From the sequence record PZ445451.1: DNA of 64,000 bases; one strand, 5' to 3'. The position numbers and the translations under genes were made by a program. Shown in pieces: positions 11,848 through 17,338 of this stretch. The notes below the pieces were generated by a model. The model was not told the DNA's origin and ran no database searches. It was given only the letters and a program-made list of their open reading frames with translations. Every line of letters starts with the position of its first letter. Position 1 is the stretch's first letter. This DNA is from a phage.

Positions 11848-11996
11848 AAAACCTCCTCATAGTAAGGTAAAGCCTTGATCAGTTGTTCTGAAGTGCCATT
11901 TTGCACCCACGTAACACCATTGTCAACAGAAACATACCCTTTTTTGTCAATAAATTTACGCAGACAGTCAGTGAACTTGTTTTTGTAGATAACCAT
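11844..11996 (-). CDS. Small hypothetical protein (50 aa, MVIYKNKFTDCLRKF..)
   Basis: Manual ORF below size cut-off; AAGGAG SD upstream; stop overlaps downstream ATG (ATGA). Confidence 0.45.
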   Translation of the reverse strand: MVIYKNKFTDCLRKFIDKKGYVSVDNGVTWVQNGTSEQLIKALPYYEEVL

Positions 11997-12010
11997 GTTT
12001 ACTCCTTTGT

Positions 12011-12196
12011 CTATTGTTCTTTCTCAACTTTACGCAGTTCATCTCGGCAATTGTTTTGATATTTTTGATCATTTAGTTCCTCCTTTGTAAGGACTGTAAT
12101 TAGTAGTTCATTAACAAGTTTTGGAATTGATTTCCCTTCTGCCTTTGCGCGATTTAACAACGCGTTATAAGTTGCAGAGTCAAAATTAATATTCAT
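12011..12196 (-). CDS. Small protein, possibly ribbon-helix-helix DNA-binding
   Basis: Track ORF; 61 aa, N-terminal beta-strand-like segment then helices (..NRAKAEGKSIPKLVNELL..); fold assignment is a guess. Confidence 0.45.
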   Translation of the reverse strand: MNINFDSATYNALLNRAKAEGKSIPKLVNELLITVLTKEELNDQKYQNNCRDELRKVEKEQ

Positions 12197-12211
12197 TTGG
12201 TTTTCTCCTTA

Positions 12212-12568
12212 TTACATCCACAGATTATGGAAATACTTAGCAAACAAAATACGACCTTCTAAACGATCTTGCCGTTGTTTTTCATTAACTTCTTCCGGTG
12301 GAGTTGAGTCCTTAAAAGAAGACTCCATTTTTTCAAGAATTTCTAACCAGTGTTCTGCTGCTCGTTCTTCCATATAAGGTAGATAGTCACCTTTAGCGTG
12401 TGGGTACATCCGACGAAGTAACCCACTAGGAATTTTAATATTGTTTGTGGCTATCACTTTTGCACGATACGCAGAAAGTGCATTGTAGATCAGTTTACTT
12501 AGTGTCACATCTAGATCAAGAAGATCACTCTCTTCAAATTGAATTTCATCGTGTACAATTTTCATCAT
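12212..12568 (-). CDS. Hypothetical protein (118 aa)
   Basis: Track ORF. Confidence 0.5.
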   Translation of the reverse strand: MMKIVHDEIQFEESDLLDLDVTLSKLIYNALSAYRAKVIATNNIKIPSGLLRRMYPHAKGDYLPYMEERAAEHWLEILEKMESSFKDSTPPEEVNEKQRQDRLEGRILFAKYFHNLWM

Positions 12569-12849
12569 GCCTTCTCCCGATCTGCGTCTAATTTCAACAA
12601 GAAAGCTGTATACTCTTCCGAACCTTGGTGTAAAAACATGCGATAAGAGCTTACCAGTTTTTTCGTTGTTGTATAACGTTCCATTTCCCCAACAATACCT
12701 CCACCCAGTGTGTAGAGCACAACACCCTCAAACCCAACATGAGTTACTACTTCAACCAAATCTGTGTTATCCCAATGGTAGTTAGGTGACACAATAAGAT
12801 CGCCAACTGTCAGTTTAATGTTTGCTGCTTCGTCTTGTGAATAGTACAT
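12565..12849 (-). CDS. Hypothetical protein (94 aa)
   Basis: Track ORF. Confidence 0.5.
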   Translation of the reverse strand: MYYSQDEAANIKLTVGDLIVSPNYHWDNTDLVEVVTHVGFEGVVLYTLGGGIVGEMERYTTTKKLVSSYRMFLHQGSEEYTAFLLKLDADREKA

Positions 12850-12861
12850 TTTGTTCTCCTC

Positions 12862-13152
12862 TCACATTAAGACACGTTTTGTACCGATGGGAGCATTGTC
12901 GAACATGTTTATCACTTTGTCAAGTTTGTGTACTAACTCGTTCGTAATGTTCCACTCTTTGTATGATCTCCATTGTTTCTTATTCTCACCTACCTGGTGT
13001 AAAACTTTGATTGGTGCATTCAAACGTACATTGCGTTCTTTGTCCTCTTCAAAAGAGGCTAACCATTTTTCGTTATGCCCATGAACAGCAATAATAATGC
13101 CAAAACCATCAAAAGTTTCTGTAATATTCTTAGTTGCTAGTGTGATGTTCAT
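12862..13152 (-). CDS. Hypothetical protein (96 aa)
   Basis: Track ORF; first gene of the minus-strand block, divergent from 13272. Confidence 0.5.
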   Translation of the reverse strand: MNITLATKNITETFDGFGIIIAVHGHNEKWLASFEEDKERNVRLNAPIKVLHQVGENKKQWRSYKEWNITNELVHKLDKVINMFDNAPIGTKRVLM

Positions 13153-13271
13153 ATCTAACCTCTTTTGTTACGATACACACAGAGTACCAGAAATTAATTT
13201 CAGATCAAGTATTGACATACTGTTTTATTGTGCTAATCTTAATGCATACACAAACGAGAGGAGATAAACGA

Positions 13272-13823
13272 ATGCAAAACACCGATCTGACTTGGATAGA
13301 AGCTAAAGAAGCCATGTTAAAAGGCAAACGCGTTAAACATAAATACTTTTGCGAAGGAGAATGGTTTGAAATGCGTAACCGATCCCTTGTAGATGAAAAA
13401 GGGAATGACATGGGACAATGGTTCAAAAATGAAATTTGGCAGGGAACAGGTTGGTCTATAGTTGAAGAGCAGCCTAGCCCAAGCGCACTGTTTAGCCCTA
13501 TTATGTATCGCGTTATCGGTGCTTTAGTTGTTGATCACGGGATTGCAGTGGAAAAAGAATGCTGGGAAGAGGTATCTTTTTTCAACCTGGCTTCTTATGC
13601 AAAAAGCCATATGCACTTGTTTGAAGAAGGGGATGAATTTGTTCTTCGTATGCGATATGGCAAAGAATTCAGATTACCACTTGATAATGATGTAGACACT
13701 GTTGTAAAATGGTTAGCAGAGCATTACGCTTACGATGCAATTTGTGGTCGCAGCTTCGGCAACGAACGCTGGGACATGATTTGTGAAAAATATGATTTTG
13801 AGCCGGAGTACGGAGTTTTATAA
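13272..13823 (+). CDS. DUF2829 (Tad2-like) domain protein with extra C-terminal domain
   Basis: Track ORF; start moved to MQNTDLTW (GGAG SD). N-terminal ..WIEAKEAMLKGKRVKH..W(5)..GTGWSIVEE matches the DUF2829 pattern (..EAL.LLK.GKKV.R.GW ... DWEVVE) recalled from Thoeris anti-defence Tad2. Confidence 0.55.
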   Translation: MQNTDLTWIEAKEAMLKGKRVKHKYFCEGEWFEMRNRSLVDEKGNDMGQWFKNEIWQGTGWSIVEEQPSPSALFSPIMYRVIGALVVDHGIAVEKECWEEVSFFNLASYAKSHMHLFEEGDEFVLRMRYGKEFRLPLDNDVDTVVKWLAEHYAYDAICGRSFGNERWDMICEKYDFEPEYGVL

Positions 13824-14074
13824 TGTTAAGTATCAAACCTAAAATGATAACAGCAGATGAAGCAGACTTTATTTTCAAATGTGGACGTGTATGGAGAGAA
13901 TTCACAAAAGGGAATGAAGTGGTGGTTGTTGTCGAACACAAGATATCTATCCAGGATCTGTTTGGACAATATGTTGATGTTATTAAATTAGGTATTGACA
14001 AGGGTTTAGTTGAGGTGTTAACATTAGATCAAGTTGAAGCAGAGCACCTCGATAAAGTGGTGGTTGAATTTTAA
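13823..14074 (+). CDS. Hypothetical protein (83 aa)
   Basis: Track ORF, start overlaps upstream stop. Confidence 0.5.
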   Translation: MLSIKPKMITADEADFIFKCGRVWREFTKGNEVVVVVEHKISIQDLFGQYVDVIKLGIDKGLVEVLTLDQVEAEHLDKVVVEF

Positions 14075-14094
14075 AATACAGACGGGAGAAAGGT

Positions 14095-14268
14095 ATGAGT
14101 TTCTTTGTTACAGTATTTATGGCTATCTGGATTGTAGTCTCACTCGTTCTTTTCCTGGTGGGTTGTCTGGAAGAGATTAAGAAAGCGGTTATTTGCGGTT
14201 TCTTTGGCTTTATTATCTCTCCTGCCTGGATGTGGTTCTTCATTATGATTGGTTTCCTTAAAAGGTAA
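14095..14268 (+). CDS. Small membrane protein (57 aa, MSFFVTVFMAIWIVVSLVLFLVG..)
   Basis: Manual ORF below size cut-off; GGGAGAAAGG SD; two hydrophobic helices. Confidence 0.4.
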   Translation: MSFFVTVFMAIWIVVSLVLFLVGCLEEIKKAVICGFFGFIISPAWMWFFIMIGFLKR

Positions 14269-14282
14269 GTGAGGAATAAAGA

Positions 14283-14720
14283 ATGAGTAAAACAAACGCA
14301 ATCGCAGATAAAGCAACGGATGTACTTCTGAACATGGTTAACGTCACTATTCAAACAATGAGTGATGTTGTGGAGTTTGGAAAACAACAAATTCCAGAAG
14401 TAATCCATCAATTATTAGTGTGGAAAGCAGTATCCGCAGGTTTATGGCAACTTTTTAGTATTTGCTTTATGCTTATTACTTTTATTGCTGTGCGGAACAT
14501 CGTAAAAGCAATTAAAGATAAAGAATGCCTGTGGTCACGAGATCGTTATGGTGAAGTATCTGCTTTACCTATTGTTGGTCTTGTTGTCTGTGCTTTCTTT
14601 TTCTTTTTAGGGTTTGTTATTTTCTTTTCGAATTTTGATTGGCTAAAAATCATTATTGCACCAAAAGTGTATCTGATTGAATTTGCTGCTGATTTAATTC
14701 GTTCATCTCAACAAAGATAA
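14283..14720 (+). CDS. Membrane protein (145 aa)
   Basis: Track ORF; several hydrophobic segments. Confidence 0.5.
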   Translation: MSKTNAIADKATDVLLNMVNVTIQTMSDVVEFGKQQIPEVIHQLLVWKAVSAGLWQLFSICFMLITFIAVRNIVKAIKDKECLWSRDRYGEVSALPIVGLVVCAFFFFLGFVIFFSNFDWLKIIIAPKVYLIEFAADLIRSSQQR

Positions 14721-14732
14721 AAGGAGTTTAAA

Positions 14733-15860
14733 ATGAAATACACGATTTATGGTGATATTGTAAGTGTAAATAAAGATATGGGCGTGGAATCTAACTATCT
14801 TCCACCTGGATTCTATACTGTTAGTCGTGATCCCCTTGGCAATTATTTTTTAAGCCGTGGTAATCTGACAGGTGTACCGGATGTTCTGTATGGTGAAACA
14901 GAAAAACGAGCAAATCACGTTATTCGTACATTCCATCGCCGGAGTGCACAAGGTAAAAATACAGGCTTGCTTCTGACAGGAACTAAGGGCAGTGGTAAAA
15001 CTATGTTAGCCAAACTCATTAGTCGTGACCTTGTAGAAGAAGGTATTCCAACTATTATGGTTACTCAAGCCTACAGTGATGCTAATTTCATTGAACTTAT
15101 TAGCAAGATCACAGACAAAGCAGTCATTATTTTTGACGAGTTTGATAAAGTATATGAGAAGAAACAAGATCAAGAAGCACTTCTCACTTTATTAGATGGT
15201 ACTGGCAGTGGTAATAAACTGTTTATTCTGACTAAAAACAGTGGTTTTATCTCTGAATTCTTTTTAAATCGTCCTAGTCGTGTGTTTTATAATTTTAATT
15301 ATGATAAAATCTCACTAGAAACTATGATTGACTATTTAGATAAAAACCTGGATAACAAAGCACACTTTGATAATTTCCAAAGACTTTGGGATGTAAGTTT
15401 AGAGTTGTCCTTTGATGTGATCCAAGGTATAGTAGAAGAACTTAATTTCTATCCTGATTTATCCTTTAAAGAATGCATCTCTATGATGGGCGTTTCTTTG
15501 GGTGGTGGTAATAAATGGGATATCAGCAGCGTTGTTATTAATGGAAAACTTCAGAAAGTTAGCTGGGTATCTAGTTGGCATAACTTCACACCTGCAATCT
15601 TTTTAGGTGGTTCGTGCACACTAGACGTGTACTTGTCATCTCCAAGTGATGCAGACTCTAAAGAAGCCCTTGCTAATAGCTCTTACGTGGTTTTTGATGA
15701 TGAAGGCGATGCTCGAATTCCATTGAATGCGACAAAAATGAAAGCAGATCTTATTACAGGCGGTAAAATAGTTGTGTTTAGTGATGATCCAGAAGATTCT
15801 TTCCGTATTGTTCTGGAACCAACTATCACCAATGGTGCAACTTTGGCAAGTGTGTTTTAA
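14733..15860 (+). CDS. AAA+ ATPase
   Basis: Track ORF; Walker A LLLTGTKGSGKTMLAK, Walker B VIIFDEFDKV; followed by rho-independent terminator. Confidence 0.7.
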   Translation: MKYTIYGDIVSVNKDMGVESNYLPPGFYTVSRDPLGNYFLSRGNLTGVPDVLYGETEKRANHVIRTFHRRSAQGKNTGLLLTGTKGSGKTMLAKLISRDLVEEGIPTIMVTQAYSDANFIELISKITDKAVIIFDEFDKVYEKKQDQEALLTLLDGTGSGNKLFILTKNSGFISEFFLNRPSRVFYNFNYDKISLETMIDYLDKNLDNKAHFDNFQRLWDVSLELSFDVIQGIVEELNFYPDLSFKECISMMGVSLGGGNKWDISSVVINGKLQKVSWVSSWHNFTPAIFLGGSCTLDVYLSSPSDADSKEALANSSYVVFDDEGDARIPLNATKMKADLITGGKIVVFSDDPEDSFRIVLEPTITNGATLASVF

Positions 15861-15876
15861 GTAAGCCAGCAAATAA

Positions 15877-15900
15877 AAACCCGCTTCGGCGGGTTTTCTT
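15877..15900 (+). terminator. Rho-independent terminator (CCCGC-TTCG-GCGGG-TTTTCTT)
   Basis: Seen directly after AAA+ ATPase gene. Confidence 0.7.
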
Positions 15901-15934
15901 GTATTAATACCAGATTTAATAAGAGGAGTAATAG

Positions 15935-17338
15935 ATGACAGCACCAAAATCATGGGAACAATATAAAGAAGAATTAACACCCCTTGCTAAAAATCACAAT
16001 ATTCAAATCCTGGGTTATGTTGGGGAATGGAAAGGGAGCAAGACTAAACTTAAACTATCTTGCCCTGATCATGGAGAGTGGGAAAGTACCACAATCGCTA
16101 AATTTAAAACTAAAGGCAGTAAATGTTGCCCCGATTGCAATGGTCGTAGAAAAGTAACAGAAGAAAAGGAATGTATTTCCCTTGTTGATATTGCTAAAGA
16201 AAGAGGGTTTACTTTTATAGGTCTTGCCGAGGAGTGGCGAGGTGTGCGAACAAAAATTCGCATAGTTTGCCCTAAACATGGAGAGTGGAACACCACGCAC
16301 ATTATTGATTTTAGGAATGGACGTGGTTGTCCTATCTGTTCTGGTAAGAAGCCGTTAACATGGGAAACAGAATTACCGATCTTGGCAGAGATAGCACAGA
16401 AGAAGGGGTATCAGGTGTTAGGGTACGTTGGAAAATGGAAAGGGTGTTACACAAAACTTGATTTGTTGTGTCATTGTGGGAACAGATGGGATACTACAAG
16501 TATTAACAGTTTTAAAAATGGCAATGGTTGTCCTTTATGTAGGAGGGAGAATATAAGGAAGGCAAAAACAATATCCGACGATCAACATATTGCAGATTTC
16601 TTTTCTACAGGGAAATTTAAGGAAGGCACTATCTTCACCAATACAGGGAAACGTAGTTGTAGTAAATCAGGAGATATTATCTGGATGATCGAGTGTCCTG
16701 TTTGCTCCCATGATGAATATGTTCAAGCAGGTGTTTGCGATGGTAAATTTTACTCTAGAGGAAGTGATCTTAAACAAGGAAGTATCCCTTGCCGCTGTGC
16801 AACTAGCTATCATTATACAGAAAATCAGATTACCTACAAAGTGAGAAAGGAAATAGAAAAGAAAGGGTATGTCTGGGTAGATTGGATTACCAAACCATCT
16901 TCTATAGGTAAGTTTAAATATCTTTGTCTTGTACATGGGGAGCAGATAGGGAGTGCTCGTAACTTATTAACTCAAGGGTGTGGGTGTTCACAGTGTGCTG
17001 GTCATAGTCAACAGCAATTATATATTAATATTGTTAAAGATAATGATATTACAGTTGCTCTTAAGTTTGGCATAGCTAAAGATAGTGACAGGCGATTAAA
17101 CAGTCAAAATAGCCGTAATCTGTTTTTTATGGAGCGTATTTGTTTATATGATTTTAGTACAGTGAAACAGTGTAAGGCTGCTGAAAGAGCTATAAAGAAA
17201 AAATTAAAAACTGGTATCTTAACAGCAAGAGAGTTGAAAGATGGTTATACAGAAACAGTAAGTGTTTCTGATTTGGAAAATCTTCAAAAAATTATTACAC
17301 AATATGGTGGCAAATTAGTATACAGTAAGGAGATGTAA
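15935..17338 (+). CDS. Multi-zinc-ribbon repeat protein with C-terminal GIY-YIG/T5orf172-like putative nuclease domain
   Basis: Track ORF; about 6 tandem repeats of CP.HGEW.TT.I..F..G.GCP.C.G; C-terminus ..LYINIVKDNDITVALKFGIAKDSDRRLNSQN..FMERI..AERAIKKKL..GYTETVSVS resembles the GIY-YIG-like T5orf172 fold (inference). Confidence 0.6.
   Translation: MTAPKSWEQYKEELTPLAKNHNIQILGYVGEWKGSKTKLKLSCPDHGEWESTTIAKFKTKGSKCCPDCNGRRKVTEEKECISLVDIAKERGFTFIGLAEEWRGVRTKIRIVCPKHGEWNTTHIIDFRNGRGCPICSGKKPLTWETELPILAEIAQKKGYQVLGYVGKWKGCYTKLDLLCHCGNRWDTTSINSFKNGNGCPLCRRENIRKAKTISDDQHIADFFSTGKFKEGTIFTNTGKRSCSKSGDIIWMIECPVCSHDEYVQAGVCDGKFYSRGSDLKQGSIPCRCATSYHYTENQITYKVRKEIEKKGYVWVDWITKPSSIGKFKYLCLVHGEQIGSARNLLTQGCGCSQCAGHSQQQLYINIVKDNDITVALKFGIAKDSDRRLNSQNSRNLFFMERICLYDFSTVKQCKAAERAIKKKLKTGILTARELKDGYTETVSVSDLENLQKIITQYGGKLVYSKEM

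What the first reader, a model, noticed from the sequence alone, without database searches (positions are those of the whole stretch)
13272..13823. DUF2829/Tad2-like domain fused to an unknown C-terminal domain
The first ~85 residues (..WIEAKEAMLKGKRVKH..W..GTGWSIVEE) follow the DUF2829 pattern that I associate with Tad2, a phage sponge for Thoeris signalling nucleotides. Here it is extended by about 100 residues of unknown fold, and it is the first gene of a plus-strand block diverging from the early minus-strand genes. It is a candidate signal-sequestering anti-defence protein, possibly with an added activity.
Basis: inference. Interest (0 to 1): 0.65.

Follow-up and report, generated by a model that had tools for sequence, protein, structure and literature searches.

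The report
Inversion-made fusion with mini Tad2-like domain
This early gene of E. coli phage PaulScherrer (phi92 gp217) joins a shortened, distant relative of the Tad2 immune-signal sponge to a secretion-chaperone-like domain; the two were brought together by a DNA inversion, and the function is untested.

Summary
The ORF is real. Window 13272-13823 (+) is bas60_0105 of Escherichia phage PaulScherrer, 99% identical to phi92 gp217 and annotated as hypothetical.

It has two modules:
- **N-domain (residues 1-66).** It gets no Pfam PF11195 hit, but it is a demonstrable remote relative of Tad2/DUF2829. hhalign gives P about 7e-6, with 0 of 300 shuffles reaching the score. Its best solved-structure matches are SPO1 Tad2 (TM about 0.6), and it matches DUF2829-annotated viral models at E about 1e-4. 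It lacks about 24 residues (Tad2's beta2-beta3/alpha2 dimer loop), the GWNGKG and SQTD motifs, and the polar ligand contacts N26 and D79. Two pocket aromatics are kept.

The fusion exists only in the phi92 clade (32 phage records). It spans the junction of a roughly 1.3 kb inversion of the divergent early promoter cassette. Relatives keep the N-domain gene on the minus strand and the C-domain gene on the plus strand. Both halves are under purifying selection.

"Tad2 sponge with added activity" is only a hypothesis, and canonical Tad2 membership is not met.

The parts
13212..13239 (+). Promoter-like element for the plus-strand block: TTGACA at 13212-13217, a 16-nt spacer containing TG, then TAATCT at 13234-13239.
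   Evidence: Read directly from the sequence. The same TTGACAT element occurs in the opposite orientation in VEcB and ESCO5, so it moves with the inverted segment. The consensus scan did not call it, so it is only a weak candidate.
13256..13263 (+). Ribosome-binding site GAGAGGAG, 8 nt upstream of the ATG.
   Evidence: Sequence. phi92 annotates an AGGAG RBS at the equivalent position.
13272..13469 (+). N-domain, residues 1-66: a shortened Tad2/DUF2829-like fold (alpha1, three beta strands, a short helix, a last strand). It belongs to the family of phrog_3474 and phrog_22208.
   Evidence: PHROG hits at E 4e-25 and 6e-26. AF2 model pLDDT 84.7. Top PDB matches are SPO1 Tad2. BFVD hits carry DUF2829 annotation. 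hhalign against Tad2 gives P about 7e-6. Family-invariant A11, G18, F26, E30, E42, G44, W50, G60 and W61 are all present.
13470..13487 (+). Six-residue linker QPSPSA at the fusion and inversion junction. The next codon, CTG (Leu73), sits where stand-alone homologues have their ATG start.
   Evidence: Alignment with stand-alone C-domain proteins that begin MFSK.../MFSP.... The linker is the most variable part among fused alleles, with 2 nonsynonymous changes in 6 codons.
13488..13823 (+). C-domain, residues 73-183, plus the stop codon: a type III secretion chaperone/YbjN-like alpha-beta5-alpha2 fold. It belongs to the family of phrog_11295 and has conserved KSH, RY and GRxFGNxxW motifs.
12212..13487 (.). 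Segment inverted relative to unfused relatives. It carries the genes MKIVHDE (bas60_0102), Phage_tudor (bas60_0103) and DUF7325 (bas60_0104), the divergent promoter region, and the N-domain coding part.
   Evidence: blastn shows window 12217-12565 and 12855-13373 matching VEcB MT932211 in reverse orientation, while 11850-11990 and 13576-13884 match in direct orientation. Gene orders in ESCO5, KP13-26 and metagenome contigs agree.

Best explanation
**What is shown.** bas60_0105 (phi92 gp217) is a chimeric early accessory protein made of two modules that work as separate proteins in most phages.
- Module 1 (residues 1-66) belongs to a family of 60-65 aa proteins that is widespread in Enterobacterales phages. 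It is a remote, shortened branch of the Tad2/DUF2829 superfamily.
- Module 2 (residues 73-183) belongs to a family of 111-aa proteins with a type III secretion chaperone/YbjN-like fold.
- In the wider Stephanstirmvirinae the two genes face away from each other across the divergent early promoter region.
- In the phi92 clade a segment of about 1.3 kb, containing the promoters and the N-domain gene, was inverted. The N-domain gene lost its basic tail. The C-domain gene lost its own start codon and RBS. The two now form one reading frame driven by the N-domain gene's promoter and RBS.
- Both halves keep their family-invariant residues and evolve under purifying selection.

**What is inferred.**
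- The two modules probably keep their separate original jobs rather than forming a new joint activity.
- The N-module probably oligomerises and binds a small ligand, plausibly a nucleotide-derived immune signal. The pocket would be lined by F26, W50, E54 and W56, and its specificity would differ from gcADPR-binding Tad2.
- The C-module is probably a dimeric protein-binding adaptor that captures a host or phage polypeptide.
- The overall role would be host takeover or counter-defence early in infection.
For: **Gene identity and two-module structure**
- Identity of the gene and the two-module PHROG architecture.
- The N-family is stand-alone in many phages. 377 phage records match by tblastn, mostly through the N-domain. 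It sits in the nrdH-gp55 hyperplastic region of T4-like phage Merlin.

**Homology of the N-module to Tad2**
- hhalign local mode gives probability 84.8% and P 6.6e-6, covering residues 3-65 against Tad2 residues 2-89. The control-run setting scores 31.3 against 300 column shuffles (mean 10.5, sd 2.4, maximum 20.6); a reversed control scores 12.9.
- The PDB top hits are SPO1 Tad2 8wje/8smf/8smg, TM 0.59-0.62.
- BFVD hits annotated DUF2829/Tad2-like reach E 1.3e-4 to 6.5e-4.
- The only PDB profile hit is SptTad2, at E 0.33.
- Two aromatic ligand contacts of Tad2 align with nearly invariant family residues: W25 with F26 and W73 with W50.

**C-module fold**
-.

**Inversion**
-.

**Uniqueness of the fusion**
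- 32 of 135 phage records that carry the C-domain have the fused form.
- No other two-domain protein appears among 1.84 billion representative proteins.

**Selection**
- pN/pS is 0.05-0.35 for the N-domain and 0-0.05 for the C-domain among four fused alleles.

**Precedent**
- The Tad2 family binds many different signals (PMC12393519).
- Tad2 domains are often fused to other sponge families (PMC12265669).
Against: - There is no experimental evidence for any function.
- Pfam PF11195 is not met.
- The polar Tad2 ligand contacts N26 and D79, and the GWNGKG and SQTD motifs, are not conserved.
- The alpha2/beta2-beta3 loop that builds the Tad2 dimer is deleted. A Tad2-type tetramer and pocket may therefore not form.
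- Foldseek E-values against solved Tad2 structures are about 1-3.
- The mid-domain alignment differs between hhalign modes, so residue mapping there is unreliable.
- The order of events (inversion, then deletions and loss of the start codon) is reconstructed from comparisons, not observed. No inverted repeats explain the breakpoints.
- The selection estimate rests on few substitutions.
Confidence: 0.6

Rival explanations
1. The protein is a bona fide Tad2 sponge that sequesters Thoeris gcADPR signals, and the C-terminal 100 residues give it an additional (enzymatic or second-sponge) activity.
For: - Remote homology and fold similarity to Tad2.
- Tad2 domains are often fused to other sponges such as Acb4 and Sequestin.
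- The gene is in an early accessory region.
Against: - No PF11195 hit.
- N26 and D79, which contact the phosphates and hydroxyls of gcADPR, are replaced (C27; I55 or E54).
- The family-defining GWNGKG and SQTDxLAEDW motifs are absent, and the dimer-forming alpha2 loop is missing.
- The C-domain has no Pfam match to Acb4 (PF13876) or Sequestin (PF21825). Its fold is a peptide-binding chaperone type.
- The fusion is a clade-specific rearrangement, not a recurrent architecture.
Confidence: 0.1
2. The mini Tad2-like module is not a small-molecule binder. It is a protein-binding inhibitor or regulator of a host (or defence) protein. The chaperone-like module binds another protein. The fusion is then simply two protein-targeting early factors on one chain.
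For: - The loop and polar residues that build the Tad2 ligand pocket are lost.
- In Phapecoctavirus and Klebsiella relatives the N-module is joined to a different, highly basic tail (…KGKGHNKLKKGKKK). This suggests a modular binding domain attached to varying partners.
- A DUF2829 protein was earlier proposed as an anti-CRISPR, as cited in Yirmiya et al..
- The C-domain fold is typical of peptide-binding adaptors.
Against: - The most conserved positions of the family (F26, E30, W50, G60, W61; consensus GExWQ) lie in the two segments that line the Tad2 pocket. This fits a retained pocket better than a new protein interface.
- No partner is known.
Confidence: 0.25
3. The fusion is a neutral accident of rearrangement. 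One half is on its way to decay, or the protein as a whole is dispensable and has no specific function.
For: - In the sister lineage VEcB (MT932211) the N-domain gene is visibly degraded to a 59-aa remnant with an internal deletion. The N-module is therefore dispensable in this genus.
- The linker and N-domain carry most of the amino-acid changes among fused alleles.
Against: - The reading frame is intact in all 32 fused records, at 95-100% identity.
- All family-invariant residues of both modules are retained.
- pN/pS is below 0.35 in the N-domain and below 0.05 in the C-domain.
Confidence: 0.05

Closest known systems
Tad2 (Thoeris anti-defence 2; Pfam PF11195 / DUF2829), e.g. SPO1 gp34.65, PDB 8SME-8SMG, 8WJE
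   Same: - Same overall fold order: an N-terminal helix followed by an antiparallel sheet.
- Conserved helix motif (xEAxxAMxxGKxV against FGxAxxALKxGxKV).
- An aromatic residue follows beta1 (F26 against W25).
- Two tryptophans occur near the C-terminus (W50 and W61 against W73 and W85).
- It is a small phage early accessory protein.
- The profile-profile match is statistically supported, and the closest structural matches are Tad2.
   Different: - About 24 residues shorter, because the beta2-beta3 loop with helix alpha2 (the dimer interface) is missing.
- GWNGKG and SQTDxLAEDW motifs are absent, and the polar ligand contacts N26 and D79 are not conserved.
- It scores below Pfam's threshold.
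- Ligand and oligomeric state are unknown.
Class I type III secretion chaperones (CesT/SycT/ExsC/ShcA family) and YbjN/AmyR/DR_1245 proteins
   Different: - No sequence-level relationship.
- It is phage-encoded with no secretion system context.
- It has its own conserved motifs (KSH, RY, GRxFGNxxW), which are not features of those families.
- Dimerisation and peptide binding are untested.
Sponge-sponge fusion proteins (Tad2-Acb4, Tad2-Sequestin; PMC12265669)
   Same: A Tad2-type module is joined to a second small module that also occurs as a stand-alone phage protein.
   Different: - The partner is neither Acb4 (PF13876) nor Sequestin (PF21825).
- The fusion arose once, through an inversion in one clade, rather than recurring in many lineages. 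"Guilt by fusion" is therefore weak here.

Membership tests
Tad2-like / DUF2829 (Pfam PF11195) | Profile HMM match at or above the curated gathering score (25 bits) | tested here: not met
   The query gets no hit even at E<=10. Five of 31 family members give sub-threshold hits, the best at E 0.0028. P0041 scores 15.5 bits over profile positions 1-37 only. None of 49 relatives in the large database has a precomputed PF11195 hit.
Tad2-like / DUF2829 (Pfam PF11195) | Detectable homology to the family by profile-profile comparison | tested here: met
   The N-family (31 sequences) was compared by hhalign with 16 Tad2 homologues from Yirmiya et al., Supplementary Tables 7 and 12. Local mode gives probability 84.8% and P 6.6e-6 over nearly the full length. 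The control-run setting scores 31.3, against a shuffle mean of 10.5, sd 2.4 and maximum 20.6; 0 of 300 shuffles reach the score.
Tad2-like / DUF2829 (Pfam PF11195) | [quoted passage not shown] | tested here: met
   The AF2 model has pLDDT 84.7 with elements H8-16, E20-23, E32-35, E38-41, H55-58 and E61-64. The best PDB matches are SPO1 Tad2 at TM 0.59-0.62. BFVD matches to DUF2829/Tad2-like annotated proteins reach E 1.3e-4 to 6.5e-4.
Tad2-like / DUF2829 (Pfam PF11195) | Extended beta2-beta3 loop with helix alpha2 that forms the V-shaped dimer of the homotetramer | tested here: not met
   The hhalign alignment places a gap of about 22-24 residues exactly there. The model has no helix between beta2 and beta3. 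The actual oligomeric state could not be tested.
Tad2-like / DUF2829 (Pfam PF11195) | Ligand-contact residues of SPO1 Tad2: W25, N26, W73, D79 (plus T78, S76, H71, D67) | tested here: not met
   The aromatics are kept (W25 aligns with F26, W73 with W50; both nearly invariant in the family). N26 aligns with C27 (T in the family consensus) and D79 with I55. H71 aligns with G48. The GWNGKG and SQTD motifs are absent.
Tad2-like / DUF2829 (Pfam PF11195) | Binds and sequesters gcADPR or another immune signalling nucleotide, and inhibits Thoeris | not testable with these tools
   Needs binding assays and infection assays.
[quoted passage not shown] | alpha-beta-beta-beta-beta-beta-alpha topology of about 110-140 residues | tested here: met
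[quoted passage not shown] | Sequence-family membership (Pfam CesT, YbjN and related models) | tested here: not met
   No such Pfam hit for the query or for 10 homologues at E<=1. The PDB profile search finds nothing relevant.
[quoted passage not shown] | Homodimer that binds an extended segment of a partner protein | not testable with these tools
   No multimer modelling or interaction data were available.
Known sponge partners of Tad2 (Acb4 PF13876, Sequestin PF21825) | The second domain matches one of these families | tested here: not met
   No Pfam hit for the whole protein or the C-domain family. The fold differs: Sequestin is described as alpha-helical, whereas this domain is alpha/beta.

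The most novel reading that the evidence does not exclude
The 60-65 aa mini Tad2-like family (phrog_3474) is stand-alone in many Klebsiella, Citrobacter, Erwinia, Shigella and Salmonella phages. It could be an unrecognised clade of immune-signal sponges that builds its pocket without the Tad2 alpha2 dimer loop and binds a different signal from gcADPR. The chaperone-like 111-aa family that neighbours it across Stephanstirmvirinae, and is fused to it in phi92-like phages, could be a second, new counter-defence module. The phi92 fusion would then be a natural two-in-one inhibitor created by a promoter-cassette inversion.
Probability: 0.2. Interest if true: 0.75.

Novelty: new variant of a known kind. 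Interest (0 to 1): 0.45.

Why it matters
If the mini Tad2-like family binds immune signals, the known range of phage sponges would extend to a shorter architecture that standard Pfam and sequence searches miss. It would cover many therapeutic-type Enterobacterales phages, including the Klebsiella T4-like group, phi92-like phages and the BASEL phage Bas60.

The locus also gives a clean natural example of how an inversion of a divergent promoter cassette can weld two neighbouring early genes into one. Split and fused alleles occur within the same genus, which is a ready-made comparison for asking whether fusion changes function.

As it stands, this is an uncharacterised accessory protein with a well-supported remote homology and no functional data.

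Tried and rejected
- **Pfam on the query.** No hit at all.
- **Single-sequence search of solved structures.** Only chance-level hits.
- **Word-indexed homologue search.** The full protein found only its own cluster. The N-domain alone found nothing. The exhaustive representative search and an alignment query were needed.
- **Repeat-protein hits P0003, P0021 and P0022.** P0021 and P0022 were read and are unrelated repeat or junk ORFs that match a short WxGTxWSIV-like stretch. P0003 (5,991 aa, 15 short stretches) was not read but shows the same pattern. All three were rejected as relatives.
- **Mixed global alignment of both domain families (A3).** It misaligned the C-domain homologues, so the domains were modelled separately.
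- **afdb50 fold library.** Unavailable.
- **Inverted repeats that might explain the inversion.** Only short, chance-level pairs were found in the window, VEcB and ESCO5. A 15-nt pair in ESCO5 lies at the 3' end of gp163 and the 5' end of the C-domain gene. It is suggestive but no better than the 26 other pairs found in that 1.8 kb.
- **Consensus promoter scan.** It did not call a promoter upstream of the gene. One terminator-like hairpin inside the ORF is at chance level.
- **Whether the gene is the Bas60 protein sensed by KpAvs2.** It is not; that protein is Bas60_220.
- **Sequestin/T4 Y16Q as an identity for the 60-65 aa N-family.** Rejected: Sequestin is alpha-helical, and the N-termini encoded by the published cloning primers are unlike the N-domain's.
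- **Apparent N-to-C adjacency in Klebsiella phage NDO71.** The tblastn match extending to residue 87 is read-through into an unrelated 58-aa gene.

Full report
**1. What is at the coordinates**

Window 13272-13823 (+) is a 183-codon ORF that begins MQNTDLTWIEAKEAML and ends EPEYGVL. A GAGAGGAG ribosome-binding site lies 8 nt upstream. Its stop codon overlaps the ATG of the next gene.

The window is Escherichia phage PaulScherrer (Bas60, MZ501100.1; Stephanstirmvirinae, Justusliebigvirus). The ORF is the annotated CDS bas60_0105, a "hypothetical protein", and is 99% identical to phi92 gp217.

It is the first gene of a plus-strand block. The genes that follow are an 83-aa protein, two small membrane proteins, an AAA ATPase, a protein with four CapR domains plus T5orf172, and a YbiA-like protein. 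This block diverges from a long minus-strand block of small genes.

**2. Two modules**

PHROGs splits the protein cleanly:
- Residues 1-69 match phrog_3474 (a 64-aa profile, E 4e-25) and phrog_22208 (a 147-aa profile).
- Residues 73-182 match phrog_11295 (a 110-aa profile, E 3e-50).

An exhaustive HMMER search of 1.84 billion representative proteins gave only 46 hits at E<=0.001. Each covers one half or the other and none covers both. Two of the three repeat-protein hits were read and are spurious. The third, P0003, was not read but matches only as short repeated stretches.

In the phage collection:
- The N-half occurs as a 60-65 aa stand-alone protein in many Klebsiella, Citrobacter, Erwinia, Shigella, Salmonella and Cronobacter phages. 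One example sits in the nrdH-gp55 variable region of T4-like phage Merlin.
- The C-half occurs in 135 records. In 32 of them it is fused (>=95% identity). In the rest it is a stand-alone 111-112 aa gene.

**3. Is the N-module Tad2/DUF2829-like?**

*Standard membership test: no.*
- Pfam gives no hit for the query at E<=10.
- Only 5 of 31 family members give sub-threshold PF11195 hits, the best at E 0.0028. One scores 15.5 bits against a cut-off of 25 and covers only the first half of the profile.
- None of 49 relatives in the 5.8-billion-protein collection carries a precomputed Pfam domain.

*More sensitive tests: a real but remote relationship.*
- A profile of the family finds SptTad2 (8wjd) as its only PDB hit, at E 0.33.
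- The AF2 model of residues 1-72 (pLDDT 84.7; helix, three strands, short helix, last strand) has SPO1 Tad2 chains as its best solved-structure matches. TM is 0.59-0.62, although Foldseek E-values are about 1-3.
- Against predicted viral structures, the hits that follow its own family include proteins annotated DUF2829 or Tad2-like. One is a 63-aa protein at E 1.3e-4, another scores E 6.5e-4, and more appear further down the list.
- I took the SPO1 Tad2 sequence and 15 homologues from the supplementary tables of Yirmiya et al. and ran hhalign against the N-family. Local mode gives 84.8% probability and P 6.6e-6, covering residues 3-65 against Tad2 residues 2-89. The control-run setting scores 31.3 against 300 column shuffles (mean 10.5, sd 2.4, maximum 20.6). 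A reversed profile scores 12.9 and the unrelated C-domain profile scores 10.5.

**4. How the N-module differs from Tad2**

The Tad2 features below are from Yirmiya et al.; the mapping is.

| Tad2 feature | State in the N-module |
|---|---|
| beta2-beta3 loop with helix alpha2 (forms the V-shaped dimer of the tetramer) | Absent; the alignment has a gap of about 22-24 residues here |
| W25 (ligand contact) | F26, nearly invariant in the family |
| W73 (ligand contact) | W50, nearly invariant in the family |
| N26 (polar contact) | C27 (T in the family consensus) |
| D79 (polar contact) | I55 |
| H71 | G48 |
| GWNGKG motif | Absent |
| SQTDxLAEDW motif | Absent |

The module is best described as a shortened, divergent branch of the Tad2 superfamily. 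Its ligand, if any, cannot be read off from Tad2.

The Tad2 family itself binds very different signals: gcADPR, His-ADPR, cCMP/cUMP and N7-cADPR. A sponge role therefore remains plausible but unspecific.

**5. The C-module**

The AF2 model of residues 73-183 is very confident (pLDDT 95.1, pTM 0.89; helix, five strands, two helices).

There is no sequence-level match to any Pfam family or solved structure. The family has its own conserved polar motifs: KSH, RY and GRxFGNxxW. The fold is typical of dimeric peptide-binding adaptors. That function is an inference, not a result.

**6. How the fusion arose**

Related phages share a different layout from the window. It is seen in Phapecoctavirus ESCO5, in Klebsiella phage KP13-26, in the Justusliebigvirus record VEcB MT932211, and in two metagenome contigs:
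- The C-domain is a stand-alone gene on the plus strand. It lies downstream of a DUF7325 gene and a gene that begins MKIVHDE.
- The N-domain gene lies on the minus strand, first or second after the divergent promoter region. It usually carries a basic tail ending KGKGHNKLKKGKKK.

In the window, blastn against VEcB shows the following:
- Window 12217-12565 and 12855-13373 (the MKIVHDE and DUF7325 genes, the promoter region and the first 100 nt of the N-domain gene) match in reverse orientation.
- The flanks 11850-11990 and 13576-13884 match in direct orientation.

The fused ORF spans the right-hand junction. Leu73 (CTG) sits where the stand-alone genes have their ATG (MFSK.../MFSP...), and QPSPSA is the linker. 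In phi92 the left junction is tight: the gp214 stop lies 12 nt from the gp213 start.

The split arrangement is found in several divergent lineages, and both modules are stand-alone far beyond this subfamily. I therefore infer that the fusion is derived. The exact series of events (inversion, loss of the tail, loss of the C-gene start) is reconstructed rather than observed. No inverted repeats mark the breakpoints.

In VEcB MT932211 the N-domain gene has decayed to a 59-aa remnant.

**7. Is the fused gene maintained?**

Four fused alleles (PaulScherrer, phi92, SD2, inny) differ at 26 codons.

| Region | Synonymous | Nonsynonymous | Pairwise pN/pS |
|---|---|---|---|
| N-domain | 9 | 8 | 0.05-0.35 |
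| Linker | 0 | 2 | not computed |
| C-domain | 6 | 1 | 0-0.05 |

All family-invariant residues of both modules are intact. The counts are small, but they point to purifying selection on both halves.

**8. Interpretation**

*Shown:*
- A real early gene.
- A two-module architecture.
- Remote Tad2 homology of module 1.
- A chaperone-like fold for module 2.
- An inversion-associated fusion that is specific to one clade.

*Inferred:*
- Both modules keep independent ancestral functions.
- Module 1 may be an oligomeric small-ligand binder with non-gcADPR specificity.
- Module 2 may be a protein-binding adaptor.
- The overall role may be host takeover or counter-defence.

The main rival is that module 1 binds a protein rather than a ligand. 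The canonical "Tad2 gcADPR sponge plus extra activity" reading is unlikely, given the missing motifs and missing loop. Fusions of Tad2 with other sponges are documented. Here, however, the partner is neither known sponge family, and the fusion happened once. "Guilt by fusion" is therefore weak.

**9. Verdict**

- This is a new variant of a known kind and is of moderate interest.
- Its main value is twofold. It points to a possibly overlooked short clade of Tad2-like proteins in Enterobacterales phages. It is also a tidy example of gene fusion by inversion of a promoter cassette.

Noticed in passing
window 12011-12196 (-), bas60_0101: A 61-aa ORF (MNINFDSATYNALLNRAKAEGKSIPKLV...) sits exactly at the left inversion junction. 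Window 12000-12200 matched only PaulScherrer itself and OZ035773.1 among the listed megablast hits. phi92 and most other fused-type phages lack it, with gp214's stop lying 12 nt from gp213's start. It has no Pfam hit.
   Followed up: partly
L003 1949-2128 (-), VEcB MT932211 vecB_213: In this Justusliebigvirus record the N-domain gene is a 59-aa remnant. A 16-residue internal deletion removes the beta2-beta3 region, and nearly the whole tail is lost, leaving only its last ~20 nt. The module is therefore dispensable or decaying in that lineage.
   Followed up: partly
L002 1307-1750 (-) ESCO5 gp163; L004 158-604 (-) KP13-26; proteins P0004, P0012, P0014: In Phapecoctavirus, Klebsiella Stephanstirmvirinae and metagenomic relatives the mini Tad2-like domain carries a different C-terminal extension. 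This extension ends in a conserved, very basic motif (K/R)G(K/C)GHNKL(K/Q)K(G/R)KKK. Its function is unknown.
   Followed up: no
window 13488-13820 compared with L003 3001-3339: The C-domain of fused alleles is only 61-67% identical in protein (77% in DNA) to the stand-alone C-domain of unfused phages of the same genus. The flanking genes are about 95-100% identical. This points either to mosaic replacement or to fast change after fusion.
   Followed up: no
phage records OZ035773.1 and MT932211.1: Two records that both carry the name VEcB have opposite arrangements of this locus. OZ035773.1 is 98.4% identical to the window over 12000-16000, which includes the fused gene and bas60_0101. MT932211.1 has the split arrangement.
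   Followed up: no
window 15935-17338 (+), bas60_0110: This 467-aa protein has four CapR homology domains (PF21817, E 3e-46) followed by a T5orf172 (GIY-YIG-like) domain. Sister phages annotate it as an endonuclease.
   Followed up: no
window 12565-12849 (-) and 12862-13152 (-): The two genes next to the divergent promoter on the minus strand are a Phage_tudor domain protein (PF24144, E 1e-25) and a DUF7325 protein (PF24011, E 6e-20). Both lie inside the inverted segment.
   Followed up: no
protein P0017 (175 aa, metagenomic): This protein carries two tandem copies of the mini Tad2-like domain in one polypeptide. That would fit a module that works as a dimer or higher oligomer.
   Followed up: no
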